NCBI GenBank assembly: GCA_013216135.1
Contig: JABSOS010000016.1
Location: 6,718 to 70,717, forward strand
Origin: Candidatus Caenarcanales bacterium
Lineage (GTDB): Bacteria; Cyanobacteriota; Vampirovibrionia; LMEP-6097
Direction: 5' to 3'
DNA length: 64,000 bases
Both the position numbers and the translations under genes were made by a program. The notes below the pieces were generated by a model. The model was not told where the DNA came from. It ran no database searches and was given only the letters and a program-made list of their open reading frames with translations. Positions 2,882-53,715 of this stretch are shown here, in pieces; position 1 is the stretch's first letter; every line of letters begins with the position of its first letter.

Positions 2882-4282
2882 ATGATTAAAGATTCAATTC
2901 TTATTGTGATTTTCCCTAAAATAGGGAATAATTATAGGATGGACACCCCAATATTTCAGATAAATACACTTGGCTTAAGTCTAACCATACTAATTTTATT
3001 TGTGGGGTTTATCGTTATTCAGTTTTCAAAAAACTACCTTAGTGGCGATACATTATATAAAGCTTATTTTATAAGACTATTTGCCTTAATTATATCTGCC
3101 TGCCTTCTAGTTAATACAGATAACTTGATTGCCTTCTGTCTTTTCTTTGCATTAACAAATGCTTTGCTAACTTTACTCATGGTTCATAAAAGTCAGTGGA
3201 AAGCAGCACTCGAATCAGGAATTGTGGCAGCAAGAAATTTTGGGGTGGGAATTGTATGCCTTTTAGGCTTTAGTATTATCGTATATTCATTTACTGGTGA
3301 ACTGAGTATCAGTAAATTAAACCAAGTGTTTAGCTCAGTCCCAGGAATATACCAAATAGTAGCCCTTAGTTTAATCTGCATAGCAGCTTTAACTCAATCA
3401 GCATTATTTCCATTTCATGGTTGGCTTATATCATCGATGAACTCACCAACTCCTGTCTCAGCTCTTATGCATGCAGGAATAGTAAATGGTGGTGGCTTTC
3501 TTTTAGTTAAGCTAAGCCCAATGCTCCTTGAAAATCCAGTATTCTTACCGATCCTAAGTTTCATAGGAGCTTTAAGTGCTTTTCTAGCAATGCTTTGGGC
3601 ATTTACAAAAAATACAGTGAAAGCGACTTTAGTCTGTTCAACAGTTTCTCAAATGAGCTTTATGGTTCTTCAAATCGGTTTAGGTTTATTTCCTGCAGCA
3701 ATAAGTCACCTAATCATGCACGGCTTATTTAAAGCATTTCACTTTCTAGCAGCAGGTTCTGGAATTCAAATCAAGCGTCCAGCAAAGTTAAATTTAAATT
3801 TCCAAGAAAAAACGATTTATCTTTTAGTCGCTATGGCTTTTTCATATGTATCAATAAACCTTTTCTCTATTGCAGCTCACATCCCAATTAACTTCTATGA
3901 TAGTTCAATCATTTTGTTTGCTTTCATCTTCATGGCGTTAACTCAGCTAAGTATTAGCATACTTACAAGTAGCAAAAACTTTTTAGTTCCATTCTTTGCT
4001 TTCTTTGTATCTATCTCTGCAGCTGTACTCTACGGTGCATTCATCCATTTCTTTGAATTAATACTTGCAAGTAGTGTTCATATGCATACATATGCAGTTC
4101 ATTTACCTCAGTGGTTACTATTAAGTCCATTTGCAGTTTTATGGCTTGCGATGAATTATAAAGAGGATATACTTTACCTACTTCCAGAGGAAATCCACTT
4201 AAGAATCTATGCATTCTTGAAGAATACTTCTATGAGTAAAGAAGTTACTAATACTAGTGTTAGAGGGGAATACGCTAATTAA
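2882..4282 (+). CDS. dabB: NuoL/MnhA-type proton-translocating membrane subunit (DabB/MpsA-like)
   Basis: about 14 TM, complex-I antiporter-like (PF00361-type) sequence; immediately upstream of the DUF2309 gene; start likely the downstream Met at 2939 (MDTPIFQ...). Confidence 0.7.
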   Translation: MIKDSILIVIFPKIGNNYRMDTPIFQINTLGLSLTILILFVGFIVIQFSKNYLSGDTLYKAYFIRLFALIISACLLVNTDNLIAFCLFFALTNALLTLLMVHKSQWKAALESGIVAARNFGVGIVCLLGFSIIVYSFTGELSISKLNQVFSSVPGIYQIVALSLICIAALTQSALFPFHGWLISSMNSPTPVSALMHAGIVNGGGFLLVKLSPMLLENPVFLPILSFIGALSAFLAMLWAFTKNTVKATLVCSTVSQMSFMVLQIGLGLFPAAISHLIMHGLFKAFHFLAAGSGIQIKRPAKLNLNFQEKTIYLLVAMAFSYVSINLFSIAAHIPINFYDSSIILFAFIFMALTQLSISILTSSKNFLVPFFAFFVSISAAVLYGAFIHFFELILASSVHMHTYAVHLPQWLLLSPFAVLWLAMNYKEDILYLLPEEIHLRIYAFLKNTSMSKEVTNTSVRGEYAN

Positions 4283-4306: not shown

Positions 4307-6955
4307 ATGATCACAAGTTTAAAAGACCAAGAATCTCTAAAAGATACCATCAATAATGTTTATAAAAGCTTCGATGATAAGAAGTTTACAGGAAATATGA
4401 TAAAAGCCTTTGTGGCAAATGCCTTTGAGGTAGTTAATACAAACTGGTCATTAAAAAGTTTCATAGCAATCAATCCACTAAAAGGGTTTGAAGATGAACA
4501 TTTTTTCGAAGCTACTAAGTCAGCTGCAAAATATTTCAGCGCTCAATCATTTTTCCCCATTGAAAAATACTATGAACTTCTGGATAAAGGTGAAATTAGC
4601 CGTGAGTATTTATTAGAAATTATTGAAAAAGAATTTAATGAAACAGGTATGTCTTTGATTTTCCTTCAGATGCTAGAAGATAAGCTTATAAAAGAGCCTC
4701 ACGTAAATTTCAAAAAAATATACCCTTACTCTCAGCATATTAATAATGGTAGAGTTCTCGATAAAGTAAATAACTACATGAACTACCTTTGCGCCGCTTA
4801 CTTTGATGAAAGTCAAGCCACGTGGGAATTACCAAACCGAGATAAAGGATTCTATACTTGTTGGAAAAAGCTTGGACCTTTTGATGATAAGTTAAGCAAG
4901 AACTCTAAAATCAAATCCTGGATGAGATTACTACCGGATTCAGCAGAAAAGACTTTAGTCGTAGGTTTAGAAACACTAGGTTTAAAGCAGAGCGACTGGA
5001 ATGAATATCTAAAATCAAATTTATGTTGTCAAAGCGGCTGGGCGAGCTTCATTAAATGGAGAGATATCAATAGTGAAAATAAAGACTTTAAATACAAGAT
5101 CAGTATGACTGATTTTTTAGCTGTTCGTTTAATCGTCGAAATCATTTACCTATTTGACTATCTAAACTTCAAAGATAAAGATGGTTTAAATGACTTTGAA
5201 GAATTTGAAGCACAGATCCTGAAAAAGCTTTTAGCAGAGCAAAACGATCAGATTGAAAAAAACCTTGAAGAAAGTTCAACGAATGAAGTAAGGGAAAATG
5301 AAGAAAAGATATCTACTCTTATTGAAAAAAACAACTTAGATTCTAAAGACCCAGATATCAAAAACACTCTTGAGAGATTCTCGGAAAAAGCTAGCTACCT
5401 TATGCAATGTGCATGGGAACTTACCGAGCATAAAAACTTACTTGAACATATATCAGCCAATCATGAAATGATGAACTTTAGTTCATCAAAGAAAAAACGT
5501 TCACTTGCACAAATGATTTTTTGTATCGATGTCAGATCGGAAGGAATTAGAAGATCAATAGAGAGTGTCGCTAATGTAGAAACACTTGGTTTTGCAGGAT
5601 TCTTCGGCTTACCTATCAGTTATAAAACCCATAAAGATACTAATCCTCAAGCTGCCTGTCCAGTTTTAATAACTCCAAATCATGAAGTACACGAGCACGT
5701 TCACCCTAAGAGTGCTGAAAAATTTATAGACTTTCAAATTAACCAAAGAATCTCAGAGCTTGTCTATAAAGCTTATAAAGCTCAGAAAAACAATGTAGCA
5801 GCAGCTTTCATCTTCGCTGAAGCATCTGGTTTAATTTATTTAGGTTTAATGTTATTAAAAACAATTACCCTGAAATTAAAAGTAGGAATAGAAAAACTTT
5901 TCTTTAAAGATAAAACTAAAGTTTACTTTGACCCTAATATTGACCTAAGTCCTACTAATGAGCACGGTCTTTCAAGAAAAGAGCAAGCCTTCTTTGCCGA
6001 AACAGCTTTAAGACTTATGGGGCTTACAGATAACTTCAGTGAGTTCATTCTCTTTACTGGACACGGCAGCCAAACAGAGAACAACCCTTATGCATCAGCT
6101 TTAGACTGTGGCGCCTGCGCTGGACAGCATGGTGGGTCAAATGCTAAGACTTTAGCAAAAGTACTCAACAACCCAGAAATCAGAAGATCTATAGCTGAAA
6201 ATGGAATTCAAATTCCAAATGATACTGTCTTTATCGGTGCGGAGCATAATACGACAACAGATGAAATCGAGATCTATGATATTGAGATTACAGATAAAGA
6301 AAACGTAGCCAAGCTAAAAGAATTAAAAACAAATTTAAAAATCGCAGCAAAGCTTAATAGAGCATCCAGAAATAGTTATGAAGAATATGATGTAACTGAC
6401 GCTGCGATACTTGCAAAATCTATCGATTGGTCTGAAACACGTCCTGAATGGGGACTTGCAGGGAACATGGCTTTTGTTATCGGTCCTAGAGAGCTTACGA
6501 AAGGAAATAATTTATCAAACCGTGTATTTATGCACTCCTATAGACAGGAATCTGATCCTGAAGGAGCTTTACTAGAAACCATAATGGGTGGTCCTATGGT
6601 AGTTACCCAGTGGATTAATAATCAATACTACTTCTCAAGTATGGACATTAAAAACTTTGGTAGTGGGAGTAAAATTACTCACAATATAGTTGGTGACTTA
6701 GGTGTACTTCAAGGAAACATGAGTGATCTCTTTACTGGTTTAAGCTTACAGTCTGTGTTTATGAATGATGAAGAGCTTTTTCATAAGCCTTTAAGATTAA
6801 GAGTTGTAATTCACGCTCCAAAAGAAAGAGTCAAAAAAATCTTAACTAGAAATCAGAATCTTACAGCACTTTTCACAAATCAATGGATTTATCTAAGCAT
6901 AATTGAACCAGAAACAGGTAATATTATTAATGTTGACAATATAGATAATATATAA
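4307..6955 (+). CDS. dabA: DUF2309 protein, DabA/MpsB-like inorganic carbon transporter subunit
   Basis: 882 aa; beta-carbonic-anhydrase-like CxDxR 'FCIDVRSE' and 'HGSQ...LDCGACAGQHGG' metal-site motifs typical of DabA; paired with the NuoL-like gene. Confidence 0.8.
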   Translation: MITSLKDQESLKDTINNVYKSFDDKKFTGNMIKAFVANAFEVVNTNWSLKSFIAINPLKGFEDEHFFEATKSAAKYFSAQSFFPIEKYYELLDKGEISREYLLEIIEKEFNETGMSLIFLQMLEDKLIKEPHVNFKKIYPYSQHINNGRVLDKVNNYMNYLCAAYFDESQATWELPNRDKGFYTCWKKLGPFDDKLSKNSKIKSWMRLLPDSAEKTLVVGLETLGLKQSDWNEYLKSNLCCQSGWASFIKWRDINSENKDFKYKISMTDFLAVRLIVEIIYLFDYLNFKDKDGLNDFEEFEAQILKKLLAEQNDQIEKNLEESSTNEVRENEEKISTLIEKNNLDSKDPDIKNTLERFSEKASYLMQCAWELTEHKNLLEHISANHEMMNFSSSKKKRSLAQMIFCIDVRSEGIRRSIESVANVETLGFAGFFGLPISYKTHKDTNPQAACPVLITPNHEVHEHVHPKSAEKFIDFQINQRISELVYKAYKAQKNNVAAAFIFAEASGLIYLGLMLLKTITLKLKVGIEKLFFKDKTKVYFDPNIDLSPTNEHGLSRKEQAFFAETALRLMGLTDNFSEFILFTGHGSQTENNPYASALDCGACAGQHGGSNAKTLAKVLNNPEIRRSIAENGIQIPNDTVFIGAEHNTTTDEIEIYDIEITDKENVAKLKELKTNLKIAAKLNRASRNSYEEYDVTDAAILAKSIDWSETRPEWGLAGNMAFVIGPRELTKGNNLSNRVFMHSYRQESDPEGALLETIMGGPMVVTQWINNQYYFSSMDIKNFGSGSKITHNIVGDLGVLQGNMSDLFTGLSLQSVFMNDEELFHKPLRLRVVIHAPKERVKKILTRNQNLTALFTNQWIYLSIIEPETGNIINVDNIDNI

Positions 6956-9829: not shown

Positions 9830-10531
9830 CTATGATGAAGAAAAAGTCAACACTGATAAATCTTCATTTAGTTCTTTTAACAGATTTTGCAAAGCAGGTT
9901 CAATTTCGTGAACATCGCTACTATCAAAATAATTATCATCATTGCTAGTTATAGATAGCTGATAAGGCTTACCTTTGTCTGTGACCGTTAACAATAATTT
10001 AAAGTTATAACCTCTAAACTCAAGCTTCCCAGTATAATTAGACATTCCAACTTGATCTTCTCTATTATTTAAATCATCTTGAACAATATTTCTAAACTCC
10101 CACTTATCAAAGGAAGTAAGAGCTTGTTTCAATTCAGTAGCAATGGTACTTGAATCATTCTTATCATCTTTAGCTTCAGAAAGTTGATTTAAATTACCGA
10201 TCGCTTCCCAAGATGGCATCAAATGTTGAGTAATTTGTTCAATAGAACTCTTTAAAGCATTAATCCCTTTATCTAAAGTTTCCTGAACAAAATTCATATC
10301 TATCCTCTTATCAGTATCAAGAGTAGGAATGTTTGCTTGCGGGGATTGAGTAATGAGTTCTTGCTCACGGTTTGATAGTGCAGAAGCAATTTCTCTTGCT
10401 CCAGGTAATAAATAGTTTTCAATTTCTTTCCCAATAGCATTATCAATTCTTGCTTTTGTTACTCTTTCAAGAGTAGTTGGAGGTGAATAAGGAGTGATGA
10501 GCGAAGACACGTTAATACAGTAGCAGCGCAA
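9830..10531 (-). CDS. hypothetical protein
   Basis: 233 aa ORF, no recognisable motif. Confidence 0.45.
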   Translation of the reverse strand: MRCYCINVSSLITPYSPPTTLERVTKARIDNAIGKEIENYLLPGAREIASALSNREQELITQSPQANIPTLDTDKRIDMNFVQETLDKGINALKSSIEQITQHLMPSWEAIGNLNQLSEAKDDKNDSSTIATELKQALTSFDKWEFRNIVQDDLNNREDQVGMSNYTGKLEFRGYNFKLLLTVTDKGKPYQLSITSNDDNYFDSSDVHEIEPALQNLLKELNEDLSVLTFSSS

Positions 10532-11530: not shown

Positions 11531-12628
11531 ATGGATCCGATAGCAAATATAGTTCCAAATTACCAAGATTTACCATTCCCAGCACCACTCTGGCTACTCC
11601 AAATACTCTTAATCGTCGGTTTTTTCACACATGTAGTGCCGATGAACGTAGCTTTAGCAGGTGGAGCGGTCTCAAGTATACTTTTAGGTAATAAAGAAGG
11701 TAGCTATGCCCATAAAGCTGGACGTCAGCTTGCATTTTCGCTGCCATTCTTCACTTCTTTAGCTATAACACAGGGTATAGTGCCTTTACTTTTCCTTCAA
11801 TTAATATATGGACCAGCTTTTTATAGCTCGTCTATATTAATGGCAGTGCCTTGGATTTTGATTTTAGTATTTTTATTAATAGGTTATTACGCTCAGTATA
11901 TTTATAAGTTCAAGGGTGAAAAATTTGGTAAAGCTGCACCTATCTTCTTAGTAATTTCAAGCTTCCTATTTTTAATAATCGCTTTTATTTTTGTTAATAA
12001 TATGACGCTAATGCTTAATCCTAATGAGTGGTTAGAACTAGCGAAAAAAGGAACTAGTGGTATTAATCTAAATTTAAATGATCCACAAATCATCCCTAGA
12101 TTTTTACACTTTGCAATTTCTTCTATCGCAATCACCGGTATCGCTTTAGGTGGCTTTGGTCTTTACTATCAGAAAAAAGATAAGGACTACGCTCACTGGT
12201 TATATAAGACAGGATCAGGAATCTATGCTGCTGTAACTCTTTTACAGTTAGGCTTCGGTACTTGGTTTATGCTTTCCTTACCTTTAGAAAGAGCGATACT
12301 TTTCATTAAAGGCGGTGGACTCGCTACAGCTTCATTCCATAGCTCAATGTTATTCATGATAGTTTCACTAGTATTTTCAGTTTTAGTTCTAATTAAACCT
12401 AGCAAAGCTAAATTCATCGGTGCTTTAATCAGTTCACTAGTAACAGTTTTACTCATGATAGTAATGAGACACTTCCTTAGAGTCTGGAGTCTAGAAGGAG
12501 CCTTAGATCCAGGAATAGTTCCAGTTCAAATTCAATGGGATTGGTTAGTAATATTCGGTGTTCTAACTATAGGTGTAATTTTTTATATAGGTTGGTTAAT
12601 TAAAATTTGTCTAAAGGCAAATAAGTAA
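11531..12628 (+). CDS. cytochrome bd subunit-I-like (CydA-like) membrane protein, divergent and truncated paralog
   Basis: 365 aa polytopic; aligns by eye to the N-terminal region of the 14464 protein and to CydA (TM1 His, '...NNMTLMLNPNEW' vs '...NGILSFMLTPGNW'); lacks the conserved Glu pair. Confidence 0.5.
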   Translation: MDPIANIVPNYQDLPFPAPLWLLQILLIVGFFTHVVPMNVALAGGAVSSILLGNKEGSYAHKAGRQLAFSLPFFTSLAITQGIVPLLFLQLIYGPAFYSSSILMAVPWILILVFLLIGYYAQYIYKFKGEKFGKAAPIFLVISSFLFLIIAFIFVNNMTLMLNPNEWLELAKKGTSGINLNLNDPQIIPRFLHFAISSIAITGIALGGFGLYYQKKDKDYAHWLYKTGSGIYAAVTLLQLGFGTWFMLSLPLERAILFIKGGGLATASFHSSMLFMIVSLVFSVLVLIKPSKAKFIGALISSLVTVLLMIVMRHFLRVWSLEGALDPGIVPVQIQWDWLVIFGVLTIGVIFYIGWLIKICLKANK

Positions 12629-12639
12629 GAGGTTTTGAG

Positions 12640-13086
12640 ATGATAGCAGGCACAAGAAGAGTTTTTGTTAGATGGATAACTGGAGTTTTTGCTGCTCTAT
12701 GGGCAGGGATGGCAAGTTACCCTTTCTTTAGATATTTAATTTCAGGTACTAAGAAAAAACAAGCAGGTGAAGAATTAGTAACCTCAATTTCACTTGGGAG
12801 CTCTGAAGAGTTTTTACCGGGAGCTTCTAAGAATTTCAAATTTGGTTCTGCTCCTGCTCTATTAGTAAGATCAGAAGATGGTGCTTTTCACGCTTATAAT
12901 GCTATCTGCACTCACTTAGGCTGTACAGTTCAATACAATGAAGAGAAAAAGAACATCTGGTGCGCTTGTCATGGTGGTGTCTATGACACAGCTTCAGGTA
13001 AAAACTTAGCTGGACCTCCACCTAAGCCATTAAAGGCTCTAAACGTGGAAGTTAAAGAGGGAGAGATTATTGTTTCAAGGGCATAG
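12640..13086 (+). CDS. petA: Rieske [2Fe-2S] protein
   Basis: 'CTHLGC' and 'CACHGG' Rieske boxes; Tat-like 'GTRRVFV' N-terminus plus TM anchor. Confidence 0.85.
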   Translation: MIAGTRRVFVRWITGVFAALWAGMASYPFFRYLISGTKKKQAGEELVTSISLGSSEEFLPGASKNFKFGSAPALLVRSEDGAFHAYNAICTHLGCTVQYNEEKKNIWCACHGGVYDTASGKNLAGPPPKPLKALNVEVKEGEIIVSRA

Positions 13087-13112
13087 AAAAACAAAGAACT
13101 TAGGCAATTTCT

Positions 13113-13216
13113 CAAATTCAAGGCTTTTGAGGATGAAAAAGCGCAGTGTAATGGAATTACATGAGCATTTTGAAGACGAGAATAACGCAGAAGTTGAGAA
13201 AGTGAGTAAGTTCTAA
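13113..13216 (+). repeat. intergenic module, copy 1 (Rieske / cyt b spacer)
   Basis: about 75-80% nucleotide identity to 14345-14450 (CAA[A/G]TTCAAGGCTT ... TTTTGAAG.[C/G]GAG.ATAACGCAGAA.TTG.G.AAGTGAGTAAG). Confidence 0.6.
13133..13216 (+). CDS. possible 27-aa small ORF inside the duplicated intergenic module (MKKRSVMELHEHFEDENNAEVEKVSKF)
   Basis: ATG-to-TAA ORF; its C-terminal half is conserved with the sORF at 14306; could instead be a structured RNA. Confidence 0.25.
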   Translation: MKKRSVMELHEHFEDENNAEVEKVSKF

Positions 13217-13220
13217 AAAG

Positions 13221-14306
13221 GTGTATAGTATGAGTTTAACGAGTTCCGACAACAAATTTTATAGCTGGCTTGATGATAGGGTTGGGGTTTCTGGCTTTAT
13301 TAAAGCAGCTGAGAAAAAAGAAGTTCCAGTTCATAAGCAAAGCATGTGGTATTACATGGGTGGAATTGCCATGGTATTACTTGCAATTCAAGGCTTAACT
13401 GGAATCTTATTAATGGTTTACTATGTACCAGAAATAAGTTCTGCACACTCATCTGTTTTATTTATTAATACTCAGATTGAATTTGGTTGGTTTGTAAGAT
13501 CACTTCATAGCTGGGCTGCAAATATTTTGATTTTCATTTTATTTGTGCACATGTTTAGTGCTTACTTTATGAAAGCTTATAGAAAGCCACGTGAAGTAAC
13601 CTGGTTCAGTGGTATGGCACTTTTAGGAATTTGCTTTGCTTTCGGTTTTACTGGTTACCTTTTACCATGGGATGAAATCGCTTTCTTCGCAACTAAAATA
13701 GGTTTAGACATCGCTGGTAAAACACCTTTCATCGGTGGCGTAATCGCTGACTTATTAAGAGGTGGTGCAGAGATCGGTCAAGGAACTATCTCTAGATTCT
13801 TTTTAATTCACGTTATTTTATTACCGATAGCATTATTTGCTGTTGCTGGTTTGCACCTACTTTTAGTTCAACTTCACGGTATGTCTGAACCAGAGAGTTT
13901 TAAGAAAGCTAAGAAAAAGAAATATGAAAAATTCTTCCCAGACTTTTTAGTAAAAGATTTTATGGTTTGGTTATTTTTCTTTAACTTAGTTGCAGGAATA
14001 GTAGCACTCTTCCCTTGGGGCTTAGGTCCAGAAGCTGATCCATTTGCTCCAGCTCCAGCTGGTATTAAACCAGAATGGTATTTTCTTGCTATGTTCCAAT
14101 TCTTAAAACTTCTTCCTCCTCACATCGGACCTTTTGAAGGAGAGATTTTAGGGATAGCATTCTTTGGAGTTTTAGCGTTAGTGCTTTTCGTTGCACCATT
14201 TATAGATACAGGTAAAAGTAAAGCTGTGAGTAAATTCTTTGATGTCTATGGAATTCTGTTCACTATAGGATTTGTTGGCTTTACTGTTTGGGGGATGCTT
14301 GATTAA
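13221..14306 (+). CDS. petB: cytochrome b, b6-type (b6 and subunit IV fused)
   Basis: His pairs in helices B ('HSWAANILIFILFVH') and D ('IHVILL...GLHLLL'); 'PEWYFL' motif; ATG at 13230 may be the real start. Confidence 0.85.
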   Translation: MYSMSLTSSDNKFYSWLDDRVGVSGFIKAAEKKEVPVHKQSMWYYMGGIAMVLLAIQGLTGILLMVYYVPEISSAHSSVLFINTQIEFGWFVRSLHSWAANILIFILFVHMFSAYFMKAYRKPREVTWFSGMALLGICFAFGFTGYLLPWDEIAFFATKIGLDIAGKTPFIGGVIADLLRGGAEIGQGTISRFFLIHVILLPIALFAVAGLHLLLVQLHGMSEPESFKKAKKKKYEKFFPDFLVKDFMVWLFFFNLVAGIVALFPWGLGPEADPFAPAPAGIKPEWYFLAMFQFLKLLPPHIGPFEGEILGIAFFGVLALVLFVAPFIDTGKSKAVSKFFDVYGILFTIGFVGFTVWGMLD

Positions 14307-14467
14307 TGAAACCTTTTGATAAAACTAGGGCTTGCGCACTTGCACAAGTTCAAGGCTTGCGAAAGCTGAAAAACCGCAGTTTACTTTTTGTAAATGAGGA
14401 TTTTGAAGCTGAGCATAACGCAGAAATTGGGCAAGTGAGTAAGCCCTATGAGGAGTTTGAATTATGA
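14306..14467 (+). CDS. 53-aa small ORF in intergenic module copy 2, translationally coupled on both sides
   Basis: ATG overlaps the cyt b stop (TAATG); its TGA overlaps the next ATG (ATGA); the C-terminus '...EDFEAEHNAEIGQVSK' is conserved with the 13133 sORF. Confidence 0.4.
   Translation: MKPFDKTRACALAQVQGLRKLKNRSLLFVNEDFEAEHNAEIGQVSKPYEEFEL
14345..14450 (+). repeat. intergenic module, copy 2 (cyt b / CydA-cyt c spacer)
   Basis: paralogous to 13113-13216; a small hairpin at the equivalent position carries compensatory changes (TGTAAT..ATTACA vs TTTAC..GTAAA). Confidence 0.6.
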
Positions 14468-15828
14468 ATTACCCTGTTTGGAGTATACCGGGAATAGGCG
14501 GATCATGGTTAGTAGGATTAATCTCTGTTATCCACGTCTTCTTGTCACACTTTGCAGTCGGTGGTGGAATTTTCTTCGCTATCACTGAATGGATCGCTTA
14601 TAAGCGTGGTGATGACAGAATTTACCAATATCTAAAGAAACACTCTAAGTTTTTCTTACTTGCAACCACAGTTGCTGGTGCAGTAACAGGTGTCGGGATT
14701 TGGTTCTCTATTAGTTTAGTAAGTCCTGATGGTACTGGTACTTTAATCCAAAATTACACACTTGGGTGGGCGACTGAATATCTATTCTTCTTAACTGAGA
14801 TTGCGACAGTATTTGTCTATTACTATACTTGGGATAAAATCTCTAAAGAAACTCACTTAACTTTAGCTAGATGGTATGCAGTTTTATCAGTGTTCACACT
14901 AGTAATTATTAATGGAATCCTTTCATTTATGCTTACTCCAGGAAACTGGGTCGAGTCTAAGTTATGGTACGAAGGTTTCTTTAACCCTACTTACTGGCCT
15001 TCTCTATTCTTAAGAATCTTTGTAATGCTTGCGATAGCAGGAATGTATTCTTTAGTAACTTCAGCTAGAATTAAGAATAAAGACTATAAAGAATTAAAAG
15101 TTAAAAACCCTGATCCAGAGCATAAGAACGAAGATGACTTTAGAGCGTACATGCTTAAATACTCTTCTAAGTGGTTCTTCCCTGTTTTCGTTTTAGGTCC
15201 AGTATTTGGTTTCTGGTTCTTCTCACAAGTCCCAGGAAATGTACTCGATAACATCTTCAATGGTATTCAGGCTTCTGGAGTTGGAAACTTCTCTATACTA
15301 GCGAGAGCCATTTACCTAAGTTTAATTCTTTCTGGAACTATACTTATCTTCGCTTATATCGGACCATACTTAAACCCGAGAGGTTTCTCTTTTATAGCAG
15401 CTTTAGCCTTTATGGTTTGTGGTCTAGGTGTAACTGCTATTTCAGAGTGGTCTCGTGAAATGCTGAGAAAACCTTACGTAATCTATGGTTACATGTACTC
15501 AAATGGTATTAAAGTCTCAGACGTCGATAAGATAAATGAAGAGGGCTTTTTAGCCCATTCTAAATGGCGACCAGCAGATAATGAAAGTCCAGGCGAGTTT
15601 ATCTTTAAGCAACAATGCATGAAGTGTCACACTACAGATGGATATAGAAGTATGACTAGATTGCTTGGTGAAAGAGATAAAGATGCTATTAAAGGTTTCC
15701 TAACTCTTATGCATGAAACAGATATTGAAAAGAATTCATATCTGAAAATTATGCCACCGTTTGTTGGGACTAATGAAGAGATAGATATGCTTGCTTCTTA
15801 CCTGAGTACTTTAAATAAGAATAAATAG
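14464..15828 (+). CDS. CydA-like (cytochrome bd subunit I family) membrane domain fused to a C-terminal mono-heme cytochrome c
   Basis: by-eye alignment to E. coli CydA: TM1 His, 'AITE' (Glu), 'IYQYLKKHSKFF' vs 'IYKDMTKFWGKLF', 'AGAVTGVGIWF' vs 'LGVATGLTMEF', 'ATEY/LTEI' vs the Glu99/Glu107 region, 'TWDKI' vs 'GWDRL', 'NG..MLTPGNW' vs 'NGWMQNP'; C-terminal 'CMKCH' heme site and 'MPPF' Met-ligand region. Confidence 0.7.
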   Translation: MNYPVWSIPGIGGSWLVGLISVIHVFLSHFAVGGGIFFAITEWIAYKRGDDRIYQYLKKHSKFFLLATTVAGAVTGVGIWFSISLVSPDGTGTLIQNYTLGWATEYLFFLTEIATVFVYYYTWDKISKETHLTLARWYAVLSVFTLVIINGILSFMLTPGNWVESKLWYEGFFNPTYWPSLFLRIFVMLAIAGMYSLVTSARIKNKDYKELKVKNPDPEHKNEDDFRAYMLKYSSKWFFPVFVLGPVFGFWFFSQVPGNVLDNIFNGIQASGVGNFSILARAIYLSLILSGTILIFAYIGPYLNPRGFSFIAALAFMVCGLGVTAISEWSREMLRKPYVIYGYMYSNGIKVSDVDKINEEGFLAHSKWRPADNESPGEFIFKQQCMKCHTTDGYRSMTRLLGERDKDAIKGFLTLMHETDIEKNSYLKIMPPFVGTNEEIDMLASYLSTLNKNK

Positions 15829-51879: not shown

Positions 51880-52911
51880 CTAAAATAGGATTATAGCAAC
51901 TAAATAAAGCAAATACAGGAATCCCATAAAAGTTAATGTCGCAGCGTGCACTTTTTTAAAAACTTTTAATGAAAATAGTAAGATTCCAGCAGAAAGTATC
52001 GATAATATTACGCAGAAAATCGTATGAGAGTCTAAATTCCATGGAGTTAAACTAACGCCGACAGCACATGGAATCGCGGATTGGAAAACCATAGCTCCAG
52101 TAATGTTACCTAAAGCTAAACCATCTTTTCCAGAACTTGCCCAAAACCAACTATTCACTTTCTCAGGAAGCTCCGTAGCTATAGGAGCAATAATTAAACT
52201 TAAAATCAGTGGACTGACATTCATTAAATGAGATGCCTTTTCGATCTCTAAAATAAATTCATGAGCAAAAACAATTATTCCAGCGAGTGATAAGAAGACT
52301 TGGAAACACATCCAGAATAAATTTGAGGGTAAGCTATAGCCTGCAACAGAGAAACTTGAGATATAGAGTTTATCGACATCATCTTCAGCGTCTTCAAACT
52401 CAGCATCAGTTCCTTCCTTTAGGGTAGTAATAAAATAAGTCGCATAAATTCCGACTAAAACTATCGCAAAGCCTACTTTAACTTGTACCTGATGGAATAA
52501 AGTCGCTGAAACAGCTACAAATAAAGCGATTAAAAAGTAAGTTAAATCTTTAGTGATGTGTTTATGACAGACTTTCAAATCTAAATTTTGACGTTTCTTA
52601 TAACTAACTAAAACTGCTAAACCTAAAAGGAACATCGCTAAAGTCGAAAGTAAAAAAGGCGCACCAATAATAGAACCTATAGCAATCTCAGTTTTAGGAT
52701 CACCGTGAGCATGAGTTCCTGCAAGGAAAATAGCGATAATCGGCAAAAGCGTCTCAGGCAAAGCAGTTCCTATAGCTGCAAGCAAGCTACCTACAACCTG
52801 CTCCCCTAATTTCAGTCTAACCCCTACATTCTCAACTGCGTTCGTAAACCATAAACAAACGATTAAAATCGCAGCTAATAAAAGTAAAATCTTACCGAAA
52901 ACTAGAAACAT
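51880..52911 (-). CDS. Ca2+/cation antiporter, CaCA (YrbG-like) family
   Basis: two alpha-repeat motifs 'GTALPE' and 'ATELPE'; 10 TM. Confidence 0.65.
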   Translation of the reverse strand: MFLVFGKILLLLAAILIVCLWFTNAVENVGVRLKLGEQVVGSLLAAIGTALPETLLPIIAIFLAGTHAHGDPKTEIAIGSIIGAPFLLSTLAMFLLGLAVLVSYKKRQNLDLKVCHKHITKDLTYFLIALFVAVSATLFHQVQVKVGFAIVLVGIYATYFITTLKEGTDAEFEDAEDDVDKLYISSFSVAGYSLPSNLFWMCFQVFLSLAGIIVFAHEFILEIEKASHLMNVSPLILSLIIAPIATELPEKVNSWFWASSGKDGLALGNITGAMVFQSAIPCAVGVSLTPWNLDSHTIFCVILSILSAGILLFSLKVFKKVHAATLTFMGFLYLLYLVAIILF

Positions 52912-52980: not shown

Positions 52981-53715
52981 TTAAGCCTTAGCTGCTGCTT
53001 CTGTAATTTCTTCTTGAACAAGCTCTTCAAAGCATTCAATTGCTACTGGGAACTTAGTTTTCACAAGCTCAATAGAAGCTTTAGCATACTGCTGAATTTC
53101 CCACTGAGCATCTTTAGGTGCTCTAAGGTTATACCAGTGCATATAATTACGTAAGTTAACAGTAGTAATAAATTCAGTATGAGAACCCACAGGAAGTACA
53201 CCACGAGCCTGCTCACGGCAAACGCCTAAATCAAGTAATTTATTATAAGCGTCTAAAGAAACCTTCCATGAATTTTCATAAATCTTAGTAGCTTCTGCTT
53301 GATTTAATTCTTCAGTAGCTTCAACACTTGCTTGTTTATTTTTCTCAGCCTGCTCTCTGAACGCCTCCGGAGTATAAATAGTGTTATCGAAAACAGTGTA
53401 TCTAGCACTAATTTCGTTAAAAACCCAGCATCTATGCTTCATCCACTGACGAGCGATATAAATAGGACACTTCACTCTAAACTTAATGGAGTTCTGTTCA
53501 AATGGAGTCCAGTGCTTATGCTTAGCTAAAAACTTAACTAGCTTTTTATCTCTAGCCTCAAACTCATCTGAAGTTTTATTATAAGAAACCCTAGCTGCAT
53601 TTACGATACTAAGATCATCACCCATAGTATCTAATAATTCAATATATCCTAATGGACCTAAATCAGCCTTAAGATCTTCAATCTTAGCTGTGGATTTCTC
53701 TAAAAGTTCTGTCAT
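52981..53715 (-). CDS. thyX: flavin-dependent thymidylate synthase ThyX
   Basis: ThyX motif 'KHRCWVFNEISARY' ([RK]HRX7S); 244 aa. Confidence 0.85.
   Translation of the reverse strand: MTELLEKSTAKIEDLKADLGPLGYIELLDTMGDDLSIVNAARVSYNKTSDEFEARDKKLVKFLAKHKHWTPFEQNSIKFRVKCPIYIARQWMKHRCWVFNEISARYTVFDNTIYTPEAFREQAEKNKQASVEATEELNQAEATKIYENSWKVSLDAYNKLLDLGVCREQARGVLPVGSHTEFITTVNLRNYMHWYNLRAPKDAQWEIQQYAKASIELVKTKFPVAIECFEELVQEEITEAAAKA

What the first reader, a model, noticed from the sequence alone, without database searches (positions are those of the whole stretch)
13113..14467. Duplicated ~110-nt intergenic module inside the operon; copy 2 carries a 53-aa ORF coupled by TAATG and ATGA overlaps
The Rieske/cyt b spacer and the cyt b/CydA-cyt c spacer are paralogous at about 75-80% identity (CAA[AG]TTCAAGGCTT ... 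TTTTGAAG..GAG.ATAACGCAGAA.TTG.G.AAGTGAGTAAG).

Copy 2 encodes MKPFDKTRACALAQVQGLRKLKNRSLLFVNEDFEAEHNAEIGQVSKPYEEFEL. Its ATG overlaps the cytochrome b stop and its stop overlaps the next gene's ATG, a strong signature of a genuinely translated, stoichiometrically coupled small subunit.

Copy 1 has only a 27-aa ORF with the same C-terminal motif (FE.E.NAE...VSK). An indel shifts the frame upstream, yet the nucleotide similarity continues. A small hairpin at the equivalent position also differs by compensatory changes (TGTAAT-GG-ATTACA vs TTTAC-TTTTT-GTAAA).

So it may be an intra-operon structured RNA element, such as a processing or stability site or a translational coupler. Or it may be a duplicated micro-protein gene, with copy 1 decaying. 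Either would be a new accessory feature of a bc-type complex.
Basis: seen in the sequence. Interest (0 to 1): 0.65.

Follow-up and report, generated by a model that had tools for sequence, protein, structure and literature searches.

The report
Structured RNA repeat inserted twice in operon
The two similar spacers in this respiratory operon are insertions of a widespread, hairpin-forming, repeated RNA element; they are not a small protein subunit gene and are not specific to the enzyme complex, and the 53-residue reading frame is a by-product of an in-frame insertion.

Summary
Two ~120-nt modules (13095-13214 and 14326-14448) are about 78% identical, and copy 2 lies inside a 53-codon ORF that overlaps both neighbouring genes.

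The 25-bp outer arms differ between copies by compensatory changes. Every fetched operon at 66-73% cytochrome b identity (L086-L092) is compact and lacks the module. Only the 92%-identical sister genome has copy 1, and it lacks copy 2.

The same element occurs in unrelated contexts:
- Bacteroidota-like contigs, sometimes in tandem
- Pseudomonas, Halomonas and Fukatsuia replicons
- the 16S-23S spacer of a record deposited as a Staphylococcus aureus plasmid

More than 400 database "hypothetical proteins" match a profile built from its translations. It has no Rfam match.

Between the window and its sister genome, synonymous sites are only 51-57% identical, yet the core differs at 2 positions. All six changed codons (seven base changes) in the 27-aa ORF are non-synonymous. 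The 53-aa peptide has no homologue.

The sister genome has a 13-codon bridging mini-ORF with the same overlaps, and the 53-aa ORF equals that plus exactly 40 codons.

Verdict: this is a dispersed structured RNA repeat resembling MITE, ERIC, MIRU and RPE elements. Its function is inferred, not shown.

The parts
13095..13214 (+). Copy 1 of the structured repeat, in the Rieske-to-cytochrome b spacer. Outer arms are 13095-13119 and 13190-13214, the conserved core is about 13117-13192, and the apical hairpin is 13146-13162.
   Evidence: Inverted repeat I5. MFE -33.5 kcal/mol, z -4.1. CM R1 139.5 bits. An ortholog in L004 at 4748-4872 has a near-identical core and compensatory changes in the arms.
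14326..14448 (+). Copy 2 of the structured repeat, between cytochrome b and the CydA-like/cytochrome c gene. Outer arms are 14326-14351 and 14423-14448, and the apical hairpin is 14379-14395.
   Evidence: Inverted repeat I1. MFE -52.1 kcal/mol, z -5.9. CM R1 145.9 bits. Absent from the sister genome L004, whose spacer is 37 nt.
14306..14467 (+). 53-codon bridging ORF. Its ATG shares one base with the cytochrome b stop (TAATG), and its TGA overlaps the next gene's ATG (ATGA). It contains copy 2 in frame.
   Evidence: It has only a self-hit in the protein database and no Pfam or NCBIfam match. L004 has a 13-codon ORF, MIYKKRTFSRGLL, with the same overlaps; 53 - 13 = 40 codons = 120 nt.
13133..13216 (+). 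27-codon ORF inside copy 1, judged incidental. The same frame stays open back to TTG 13070.
   Evidence: The window and L004 versions differ at 6 codons, all non-synonymous, and the first 18 codons are identical at every base.
14450..14455 (+). GAGGAG Shine-Dalgarno sequence of the CydA-like/cytochrome c gene, 2 nt after the base of the copy-2 hairpin and 8 nt before ATG 14464.
   Evidence: Read from the sequence. In the 151-nt MFE fold, GAGG pairs with CCUU upstream of the hairpin. This is a weak inference.
11531..15828 (+). Host operon: 365-aa membrane protein, Rieske protein (12640-13086), cytochrome b (13230-14306), and the CydA-like/cytochrome c fusion (14464-15828).
   Evidence: Pfam and NCBIfam. 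The same gene order occurs in the melainabacterial and the acidobacterial and other loci L004-L023, L051 and L056, without the repeat.

Best explanation
The two modules are independent insertions, or an ancient duplication, of a dispersed repeat element of about 120 nt that is selected at the RNA level. It belongs to the same broad kind as bacterial MITE, ERIC, MIRU and RPE elements.

Shown:
- Each copy folds on the transcribed strand into one long, irregular hairpin.
- That hairpin has a variable but covarying outer stem, a covarying middle helix, and a sequence-conserved apical module: GAAAAAGCGSAG, a 6-bp hairpin, then UGAGCAUUUUGA.
- 5'-CAAGGC and 3'-AACGCAG lie opposite each other lower down the rod.
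- The element is not part of the ancestral operon. Copy 1 entered the Rieske-cytochrome b spacer in the common ancestor of this genome and its 92%-identical sister. Copy 2 is present only in this genome.
- The core has been held nearly invariant while synonymous sites approached saturation, and the arms changed only by compensatory pairs.

Inferred:
- The element is co-transcribed with the operon and acts, if at all, as an intercistronic stem-loop.
- That stem-loop could be a ribonuclease processing site, a decay barrier that sets relative levels of the cistrons, or at minimum a compact structured spacer that does not expose naked RNA to Rho.
- Copy 2 sits in frame inside a short bridging ORF that relays ribosomes from the cytochrome b stop to the next start codon.
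- Ribosomes would therefore translate through and melt the hairpin, then reinitiate at ATG 14464.
- The 53-aa product is a by-product with no function of its own.
For: Structure and covariation
- Among five copies, 94.8% of cells are paired and 17 of 39 pairs changed on both sides. No shuffle of 500 reached this, and slid controls gave 28-45% paired.
- Among 13 copies from four phyla, 84% are paired and 17 of 25 pairs are compensatory. Again no shuffle of 500 reached this.
- The sense strand is more stable than the antisense strand in 14 of 16 copies.

Selection in place
- Between the window and L004, genes are 78-81% identical in nucleotides, and third codon positions are 51-57% identical.
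- The ~76-nt core (13117-13192) differs at 2 positions, and the arms differ at about 13 positions, mostly in compensating pairs.

Not ancestral to the operon
- The closest other operons (cytochrome b 66-73% identical; L086-L092) have Rieske-cytochrome b spacers of 5-27 nt.
- They have a direct cytochrome b/next-gene overlap: ATGA in L086, L091 and L092, and 19 nt in L089.
- Loci L005-L023 are likewise compact.

Dispersed family
- L058 and L059 came from a metagenome pattern scan.
- Plasmid or chromid copies occur in Pseudomonas, Halomonas (at least 6 places) and Fukatsuia.
- Copies lie in the 16S-23S spacer of a record deposited as an S. aureus plasmid.
- Copies lie at prophage-host junctions.
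- Tandem copies occur in L093-L095.
- 402 short 'hypothetical proteins' match a profile built from translations of the element.

Orientation
- The element has the same sense as a flanking gene or rRNA at about 13 independent loci, and is antisense at one, L093.

Peptide is incidental.

Bridging mini-ORF in L004.
Against: - No transcript, processing or ribosome data exist for this uncultured organism. Every functional step is inference.
- Only two copies are visible in 64 kb, both in one operon. Dispersal within this genome is therefore assumed from other genomes.
- A generic stem-loop role does not explain why about 45 nt of the apical module are 85-95% identical across phyla. That points to a sequence-specific partner that this account does not name.
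- Target-site duplication is ambiguous (TA or CTA at copy 2), and no mobilising enzyme was identified.
- One locus (L093) carries the element antisense to both neighbouring genes.
- Near-identity of the core between the two genomes could partly reflect gene conversion among copies rather than selection at this locus.
Confidence: 0.6

Rival explanations
1. The modules encode small proteins. The 53-aa product of copy 2, and a decaying 27-aa paralogue in copy 1, would be stoichiometrically coupled accessory subunits of the Rieske/cytochrome b complex.
For: - The ORF has exact TAATG and ATGA overlaps.
- Gene callers call it in three assemblies.
- The frame containing (H/D)FE(D/A)E is open across the core in all copies examined.
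- A stop-free, in-frame 120-nt insert has a chance probability of only a few percent (my estimate).
Against: - The peptide matches only itself among 5.8 billion proteins and has no Pfam or NCBIfam match.
- The ORF is absent from the sister genome and from every other homologous operon.
- Substitutions between copies fall mostly on codon positions 1 and 2. Six of six changed codons between orthologous copy-1 ORFs are non-synonymous, and they pair with changes outside the ORF.
- L058 has no start codon for this frame.
- Indels of 14 nt put the upstream half in another frame in L074.
- Only one frame can be open, because the conserved GTAAATGAG carries TAA and TGA in the other two.
Confidence: 0.04
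2. The module is a cis-regulatory RNA specific to this respiratory operon, such as a riboswitch, attenuator or thermometer controlling cytochrome b and the CydA-like gene.
For: - Both copies end 2-4 nt before the Shine-Dalgarno sequence of the next gene.
- The core is strongly conserved between the two sister genomes.
- The architecture of conserved internal loops resembles ligand- or protein-binding RNAs.
Against: - Gene contexts across the family are unrelated: a T9SS-tailed protein 3' region, nadK, a MATE transporter, coronafacate ligase, hypothetical genes and the rRNA spacer.
- In L059 and L077 no co-oriented gene follows the element.
- No other Rieske/cytochrome b operon examined carries the module.
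- There is no Rfam match.
Confidence: 0.04
3. The module is a purely selfish DNA transposon remnant (a MITE). The hairpin would be a side effect of terminal inverted repeats recognised by a transposase, with no role for the RNA.
For: - The filled site in the window can be compared with the empty site in L004, with possible TA/CTA flanks.
- Several copies occur per replicon, and tandem copies occur.
- Copies occur on plasmids and next to prophages.
- In the gammaproteobacterial subfamily the outermost arms (TGTACGAAAAGT...) are conserved across genera, like terminal inverted repeats.
Against: - Across subfamilies the arms are not conserved in sequence, only in pairing. The interior is the conserved part, which is the reverse of a typical MITE.
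- There is strand asymmetry: the sense strand folds better in 14 of 16 copies, and a G-U closing pair is kept in 12 of 13.
- Orientation is biased towards the sense of transcription.
- The stem was maintained by compensatory change at one locus, over a period in which synonymous sites diverged by about 45%.
Confidence: 0.15
4. The module is a sequence-specific functional RNA carried on a mobile scaffold. The conserved apical module would recruit a conserved cellular factor, such as a ribonuclease, a ribosomal or K-turn-type protein, or the transcription antitermination machinery. This would explain its presence in an rRNA spacer and inside operons.
For: - The apical roughly 45 nt are 85-95% identical from Melainabacteria to Staphylococcus, while the outer stems are unrelated.
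- An A before the G-U closing pair and a GA after it are invariant, giving a tandem G-A-like internal loop.
- In S. aureus one copy ends 18 nt before the 23S 5' end, and another lies just upstream of a boxA-like sequence.
- The core is 97% conserved in place.
Against: - No partner was identified.
- There is no match to any Rfam family, including ribozymes.
- The apical stem sequence itself can change: GUGUAAU/AUUACAU in copy 1 and GCAUAC/GUAUGU in L094.
- The resemblance to boxA or a K-turn is partial and comes from memory.
Confidence: 0.17

Closest known systems
MIRU (mycobacterial interspersed repetitive units; Supply et al. 1997, as summarised in PMC3184786)
   Same: - Both are short repeats inserted in intergenic regions inside operons and transcribed as part of the polycistron.
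- Both carry small ORFs whose ends overlap the stop and start codons of the neighbouring genes.
- In both, filled and empty sites are found in related genomes.
   Different: - MIRUs are 40-100 bp, G+C-rich units specific to Mycobacterium.
- The present element is a 120-180-nt rod with a conserved apical module, and it is found in several phyla.
- No sequence relationship to MIRUs was tested here.
ERIC / IRU elements of Enterobacteriaceae and Vibrio
   Same: Both are imperfect palindromes of about 127 bp in transcribed intergenic regions. Both have a long RNA stem-loop, variable copy number and conservation across genera. This comparison comes from my own knowledge and from PMC3184786.
   Different: - There is no sequence similarity. 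An 81-nt core query found nothing in 5,426 E. coli genomes.
- ERIC occurs in both orientations, whereas this family is strongly biased to the sense strand in the sample examined.
RPE (Rickettsia palindromic elements) and MITE-ORF fusions
   Same: Both are palindromic elements of 100-150 nt that can sit in frame inside reading frames, so that a hydrophilic peptide is translated from them (PMC3184786). Here, 40 stop-free codons are inserted into a bridging ORF.
   Different: - RPEs insert into genuine protein genes and are restricted to Rickettsia.
- Here the host ORF is a 13-codon relay with no evident protein function.
Correia elements (CREE/NEMIS) of Neisseria and RUP/BOX of Streptococcus pneumoniae
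   Same: All are small non-autonomous repeats that are co-transcribed with neighbouring genes and fold into long hairpins. They alter mRNA processing or stability: Correia elements are RNase III substrates (my knowledge), and BOX elements are transcribed.
   Different: - Correia elements have conserved 26-nt terminal inverted repeats and a clear TA duplication.
- In the present family the termini vary between subfamilies and the interior is conserved.
Intercistronic RNase III sites of phage T7 and intervening sequences of 23S rRNA
   Same: All are irregular rod-like hairpins with internal loops, placed between cistrons or within rRNA precursors (my knowledge). This is the best mechanistic analogy for what the hairpin could do.
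   Different: Those sites are not repeated mobile families with a conserved core. Cleavage of the present element has not been tested.

Membership tests
MITE (miniature inverted-repeat transposable element) | Small size (<400 bp) and no transposase gene | tested here: met
   Elements are 120-180 nt. Their only ORFs are incidental.
MITE (miniature inverted-repeat transposable element) | Terminal inverted repeats | tested here: inconclusive
   Arms of 25-26 nt are about 85% complementary. However, arm sequences are shared only within subfamilies and covary between them.
MITE (miniature inverted-repeat transposable element) | Target-site duplication flanking the element | tested here: inconclusive
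   Copy 2 is flanked by CTA...CTA, and the empty site in L004 has CTCTAGAGG. These bases also form the base of the stem, and other indels blur the junction.
MITE (miniature inverted-repeat transposable element) | Many dispersed copies per genome | tested here: inconclusive
   - The 64-kb window holds only two copies, both in one operon.
- The Halomonas chromid has at least 6 places.
- Tandem copies occur in L093-L095.
- 402 proteins match a profile of the element's translations; the subset named by their sources are mostly Pseudomonas- and Halomonas-group species.
MITE (miniature inverted-repeat transposable element) | A related autonomous insertion sequence with the same ends | not tested
   No search for a parent insertion sequence was possible with the remaining collection scans.
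ERIC / IRU | Sequence homology to the ERIC consensus; presence in E. coli | tested here: not met
   No blastn match in 5,426 E. coli genomes.
MIRU-like operon repeat | Located between genes of one operon, with an ORF overlapping both neighbours' stop and start codons | tested here: met
   Copy 2 lies in ORF 14306-14467, with TAATG and ATGA overlaps. This is an analogy only: homology to MIRU was not tested, and it is unlikely given the composition and size.
Any Rfam 15 family (riboswitches, ribozymes, sRNAs, leaders) | Covariance-model score at or near the gathering threshold | tested here: not met
   - The whole window gave no hit at gathering thresholds.
- Nothing overlaps the modules at E<=10.
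- Nothing overlaps the elements in L058, L072 or L073 at E<=5.
Conserved small-protein family / accessory subunit | Homologous ORF in related genomes, with substitutions biased to synonymous sites | tested here: not met
   There is only a self-hit. Six of six changed codons are non-synonymous. Start codon and frame are not conserved across the family.
Riboswitch / operon-specific cis-regulator | Consistent functional class of the downstream gene | tested here: not met
   Contexts are unrelated, and some copies have no co-oriented downstream gene.
Integron attC site | Conserved R''(RYYYAAC) and R'(GTTRRRY) ends with a variable centre | tested here: not met
   The termini read AG...CT(A)A and vary, while the centre is the conserved part. 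The consensus features of attC are taken from memory.
REP / REPIN mobilised by RAYT transposases | REP units of about 35 nt with a 5' GTAG, in inverted pairs; a RAYT gene in the genome | not testable with these tools
   GTAGGCGAGG occurs in the outer arms of some Pseudomonas copies, but not in the window copies. Whole genomes were not available to look for RAYT.

The most novel reading that the evidence does not exclude
The element is an undescribed, cross-phylum class of structured RNA. Its nearly invariant apical module (GAAAAAGCGSAG, a hairpin, then UGAGCAUUUUGA, with an invariant A and GA internal loop) would be a docking site for a conserved cellular machine, such as a ribonuclease, a ribosomal protein, or the transcription elongation/antitermination complex. 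It rides on a self-propagating hairpin scaffold. It has been recruited both into an rRNA spacer (in a record deposited as a Staphylococcus plasmid) and into mRNA operons, including this respiratory operon, where translation through it is preserved by an in-frame relay ORF.
Probability: 0.2. Interest if true: 0.8.

Novelty: new variant of a known kind. Interest (0 to 1): 0.5.

Why it matters
- It removes a false lead. Neither the 53-aa ORF, nor the database "hypothetical proteins" that are translations of the same element (402 matched its profile), are protein genes. This is an annotation artefact that can be corrected with one covariance model.
- It adds a well-supported structured-RNA repeat family that is absent from Rfam. 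The family spans Melainabacteria, Bacteroidota, Gammaproteobacteria and a Staphylococcus-labelled rRNA spacer. Its conserved interior and variable ends are unusual, and they pose a clear question: what recognises the core?
- The pair of genomes gives a natural experiment. One has a 13-codon relay ORF, and the other has the same relay with 40 extra stop-free codons of hairpin. This shows how translational coupling in a tightly packed operon can survive invasion by a repeat.

Tried and rejected
- **Three-way-junction model.** I first proposed a local hairpin GGCUU/AAGCC on the 5' side, based on L058 and L059. I dropped it for a continuous rod. L083, L072, L074 and the S. aureus copies pair that segment with the 3' strand instead (GCUUGC/GCAAGC, AAAAACAGCC/GGCUGUUUU). 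Column pair 46/101 also covaries.
- **Third copy in the window.** The site at 52956-52970 matches 14 of 15 bases of the core pattern. It is an isolated short match with no flanking similarity and no CM hit.
- **Viral pattern scan.** Scanning viral contigs with TTTTGAAGNNGAGNATAACG gave 11 hits, all chance. L060 from the metagenome scan was also chance.
- **Phage and E. coli collections.** These gave no matches.
- **Literature.** A text search for the core sequence, and searches for described repeats, found no named family. R178 of P. fluorescens is listed as a 101-bp MITE-like repeat, but no sequence was available to compare.
- **Known RNA and DNA classes considered from memory and rejected:**
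  - hammerhead-like core: CUGAAAA lacks the invariant G
  - retron msr/msd: no reverse transcriptase nearby
  - attC: see the membership test
  - 6S, SRP and Y RNAs: no Rfam hit
  - rrn boxA: only UUUAAC is shared, and it is base-paired
  - canonical K-turn: the bulge is 1 nt, not 3
  - TyrR-type operator: the apical stem changes by compensation
- **Promoter and terminator scan.** It found nothing notable in the spacers.
Full report
**What is in the window**

The region is a four-gene operon on the + strand:
- a 365-aa membrane protein, 11531-12628
- a Rieske protein, 12640-13086
- cytochrome b, 13230-14306
- a 454-aa fusion of a CydA-like domain with a c-type cytochrome domain, 14464-15828

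The closest public genomes are marine Caenarcaniphilales (Melainabacteria/Vampirovibrionia) MAGs.

- 78% identity over 82 nt and 71% over 41 nt, separated by a 1-nt indel
- a 53-codon ORF in copy 2 with TAATG and ATGA overlaps
- a 27-codon ORF in copy 1 in the equivalent frame

Each module is bounded by a 25-26-nt inverted repeat: 13095-13119/13190-13214 and 14326-14351/14423-14448. The whole 120-123 nt therefore folds into one long hairpin.
- MFE is -33.5 and -52.1 kcal/mol, with z-scores of -4.1 and -5.9.
- The complementary strand folds less well.
- The arm sequences differ between the copies, but they differ in pairs.

**Relatives of the operon**

I fetched 55 homologous loci from GTDB genomes and seven more through cytochrome b relatives.
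- Only the sister MAG L004 (454-aa protein 92% identical) has a long Rieske-cytochrome b spacer. That spacer holds an orthologous copy 1.
- L004 has no copy 2. Its cytochrome b to next-gene spacer is 37 nt.
- The next closest operons (cytochrome b 66-73% identical) are compact. Their Rieske-cytochrome b spacers are 5-27 nt, and cytochrome b overlaps the next gene: by ATGA in L086, L091 and L092, and by 19 nt in L089.
- The more distant loci that carry the full operon (L005-L023, L051, L056) are also compact.

The module is therefore a late arrival in one small lineage. It is not a feature of this type of complex.

**RNA, not peptide**

Between the window and L004:
- The four genes are 78-81% identical in nucleotides. 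Third codon positions are only 51-57% identical.
- The ~76-nt core of copy 1 (13117-13192) differs at 2 positions.
- The two arms differ at about 13 positions, most of which compensate each other.
- Within the 27-codon ORF, the first 18 codons are identical at every base. The six changed codons are all non-synonymous, and several of these changes pair with changes in the 5' arm, which lies outside the ORF.

Other evidence against a peptide:
- Between copy 1 and copy 2, most differences fall on codon positions 1 and 2 (read by eye).
- The 53-aa peptide matches only itself in 5.8 billion proteins.
- It has no Pfam or NCBIfam match.

**The family**

An exact-pattern scan of JGI metagenomes with the core found two further full elements next to unrelated genes.
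- L059 lies 56 nt after the stop of a gene with a T9SS sorting domain, between convergent genes, in a Bacteroidota-like contig.
- L058 lies next to a bile-acid/sodium symporter gene.
- Their outer stems share no sequence with the window copies, yet they pair. Their cores are nearly the same.

Five copies give an RNAalifold rod of 39 pairs.
- 17 of those pairs changed on both sides, and 94.8% of cells are paired.
- Controls with the 3' partner slid by 1-3 columns gave 28-45% paired, and no shuffle of 500 reached the observed values.
- A covariance model (R1) finds only the two copies in the window, even with filters off.

blastn against plasmids found more distant members:
- on Pseudomonas plasmids and megaplasmids
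- on a Halomonas chromid, in at least 6 places
- on a Candidatus Fukatsuia plasmid
- on a record deposited as an S. aureus plasmid

R1 confirmed these at 22-44 bits.

In the S. aureus record the element lies in the 16S-23S spacer. One copy ends 18 nt before the 23S 5' end. A second copy lies in the longer spacer variant, just upstream of a boxA-like sequence.

Pattern scans of IMG/VR found five more.
- L083 bridges the melainabacterial and gammaproteobacterial types.
- Three of the five lie at prophage-host junctions.

A profile of the one open translation frame retrieved 402 short "hypothetical proteins" of 43-86 aa. The ones named by their sources come mostly from Pseudomonas, Stutzerimonas, Halopseudomonas, Halomonas, Salinicola and Billgrantia. 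Several of these span two tandem elements.

On a 13-sequence core alignment from four phyla, 84% of cells pair, 17 of 25 pairs show changes on both sides, and no shuffle of 500 reached this. No member matches any Rfam 15 family.

**Anatomy**

All members fold as a rod. From base to tip:
- an outer stem that is lineage-specific in sequence
- an internal loop with 5'-CAAGGC opposite 3'-AACGCAG
- a covarying middle helix, for example AAAAACAGCC/GGCUGUUUU, AAAAAUC/GAUUUUU or GCUUGC/GCAAGC
- GAAAAAGC paired with GCAUUUUGA
- a small asymmetric loop with an invariant A on one side and GA on the other
- a 6-bp apical hairpin closed by a G-U pair

The apical stem can itself change by compensation: GUGUAAU/AUUACAU in copy 1 and GCAUAC/GUAUGU in L094.

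The sense strand folds better than the antisense strand in 14 of 16 members.

At about 13 independent loci where neighbours are known, the element has the sense of a flanking gene or of the rRNA. At one locus (L093) it is antisense to both neighbours.

**The 53-codon ORF**

In L004 the 37-nt spacer is spanned by a 13-codon ORF, MIYKKRTFSRGLL. Its ATG shares a base with the cytochrome b stop (TGATG), and its TGA overlaps the next ATG.

The window ORF has the same geometry and is exactly 40 codons longer.
- Its first 8 and last 5 codons correspond in position to the L004 mini-ORF.
- The 40 extra codons are the element.

In L086, L091 and L092 cytochrome b itself overlaps the next gene by ATGA (19 nt in L089). 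The mini-ORF is thus a relay that restores termination-reinitiation coupling in this lineage.

Only one frame of the element can be open, because the conserved GTAAATGAG supplies TAA and TGA in the other two frames. The insert is in that frame. I read this as selection for continued translation through the spacer, not for the peptide. Chance (a few percent by my estimate) is not excluded.

**Origin of copy 2**

Copy 2 keeps the family-typical apical hairpin GUUUAC/GUAAAU. Copy 1 and its L004 ortholog share a derived version.
- Copy 1 and copy 2 are 78% identical (D1, 82 nt).
- The two orthologous copies of copy 1 are about 87% identical.

Copy 2 is therefore not a recent duplicate of copy 1. 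Either it predates the split and was cleanly lost from L004, leaving the relay ORF, or it came from a third copy elsewhere in the genome.

**Mechanism**

Shown: a transcribed-strand hairpin under purifying and compensatory selection; a member of a dispersed family; a secondary insertion; an incidental peptide.

Inferred:
- The element acts as an intercistronic stem-loop. It could be a processing site, a decay barrier, or a structured spacer that resists Rho. This is by analogy with REP, ERIC, Correia and T7 RNase III sites.
- At copy 2, ribosomes read through it.

What remains unexplained is the 85-95% identity of the apical module across phyla. This calls for a sequence-specific partner, either a host factor or a trans-acting mobilisation enzyme. 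I could not identify one.

**Comparison and novelty**

The closest analogues are:
- MIRU: an intra-operon repeat with ORFs overlapping both neighbours
- ERIC
- RPE: in-frame palindromic inserts
- Correia elements

The element is homologous to none that I could test. There was no E. coli hit, no Rfam hit, and no literature hit for the core sequence.

I rate it a new variant of a known kind. It is a structured intergenic repeat whose interior, rather than its ends, is conserved, and it has an unusually wide phylogenetic spread.

Noticed in passing
L004:5961-6003 (sister genome, cytochrome b to next-gene spacer): A 13-codon ORF, MIYKKRTFSRGLL, starts on the last base of the cytochrome b stop (TGATG) and ends on the next gene's start (ATGA). 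It looks like a pure translational relay. In L086, L091 and L092 cytochrome b itself overlaps the next gene by ATGA.
   Followed up: yes
L079:2480-2618 and 2767-2880; L080:2456-2569 (NZ_CP077935.1, deposited as an S. aureus plasmid): The same structured element lies in the 16S-23S rRNA spacer. One copy ends 18 nt before the 23S 5' end. A second copy in the longer spacer variant lies just upstream of a boxA-like TTGTACATTGAAAACTAG. The 256-kb 'plasmid' carries rRNA operons and may be misassigned chromosome.
   Followed up: partly
L084:581-702 and L085:10842-10962 (Pseudomonas-like prophage contigs): At two different host loci the element's 5' arm and core are intact, but the 3' arm is replaced by prophage DNA immediately after ...TTTTTAACGCWGT. 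In L082 an intact copy sits between a Mu-like Mor gene and host nadK. The element may be an integration hot spot.
   Followed up: partly
Proteins P0122-P0240; L093:~9990-10243, L094:~3000-3244, L095:2138-2368: 402 database 'hypothetical proteins' of 43-86 aa matched a profile built from translations of the element. The ones named by their sources are mostly from Pseudomonas, Stutzerimonas, Halomonas and relatives. Some span two tandem copies. This is a systematic gene-calling artefact.
   Followed up: partly
window:11531-15828 and loci L005-L057: The 365-aa membrane protein and the CydA-like/cytochrome c fusion travel together in many phyla, either with Rieske/cytochrome b between them (Melainabacteria, Acidobacteria) or adjacent without it (Ignavibacteria, Nitrospirota, Bacteroidota and others). 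The 365-aa protein has no Pfam match but shows weak similarity to the CydA-like protein in some loci.
   Followed up: no
L001:1-55 and L003:1: Two independent assemblies of near-identical genomes break at the elements. The Logan contig starts inside copy 1, and the 98%-identical MAG contig starts 5 codons into the gene after copy 2. This suggests that further copies elsewhere in the genome confuse assemblers.
   Followed up: no
window:13206-13216 versus L086:2474-2500: The 3' terminal bases of the copy-1 stem plus the following bases (TAAGTTCTAAAAAGG) resemble the short ancestral-type spacer of L086 (TTAAGTTCTAAGAAGAGG). Either the base of the stem was built from target DNA, or L086 carries a scar of a lost element.
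   Followed up: no
window:52956-52970 (- strand), between thyX (52981-53715) and a Na/Ca exchanger gene (51880-52911): There is a 14-of-15 match to the core motif ATAACGCAGAANTTG, with no surrounding similarity and no CM hit. I judged it a chance match.
   Followed up: yes
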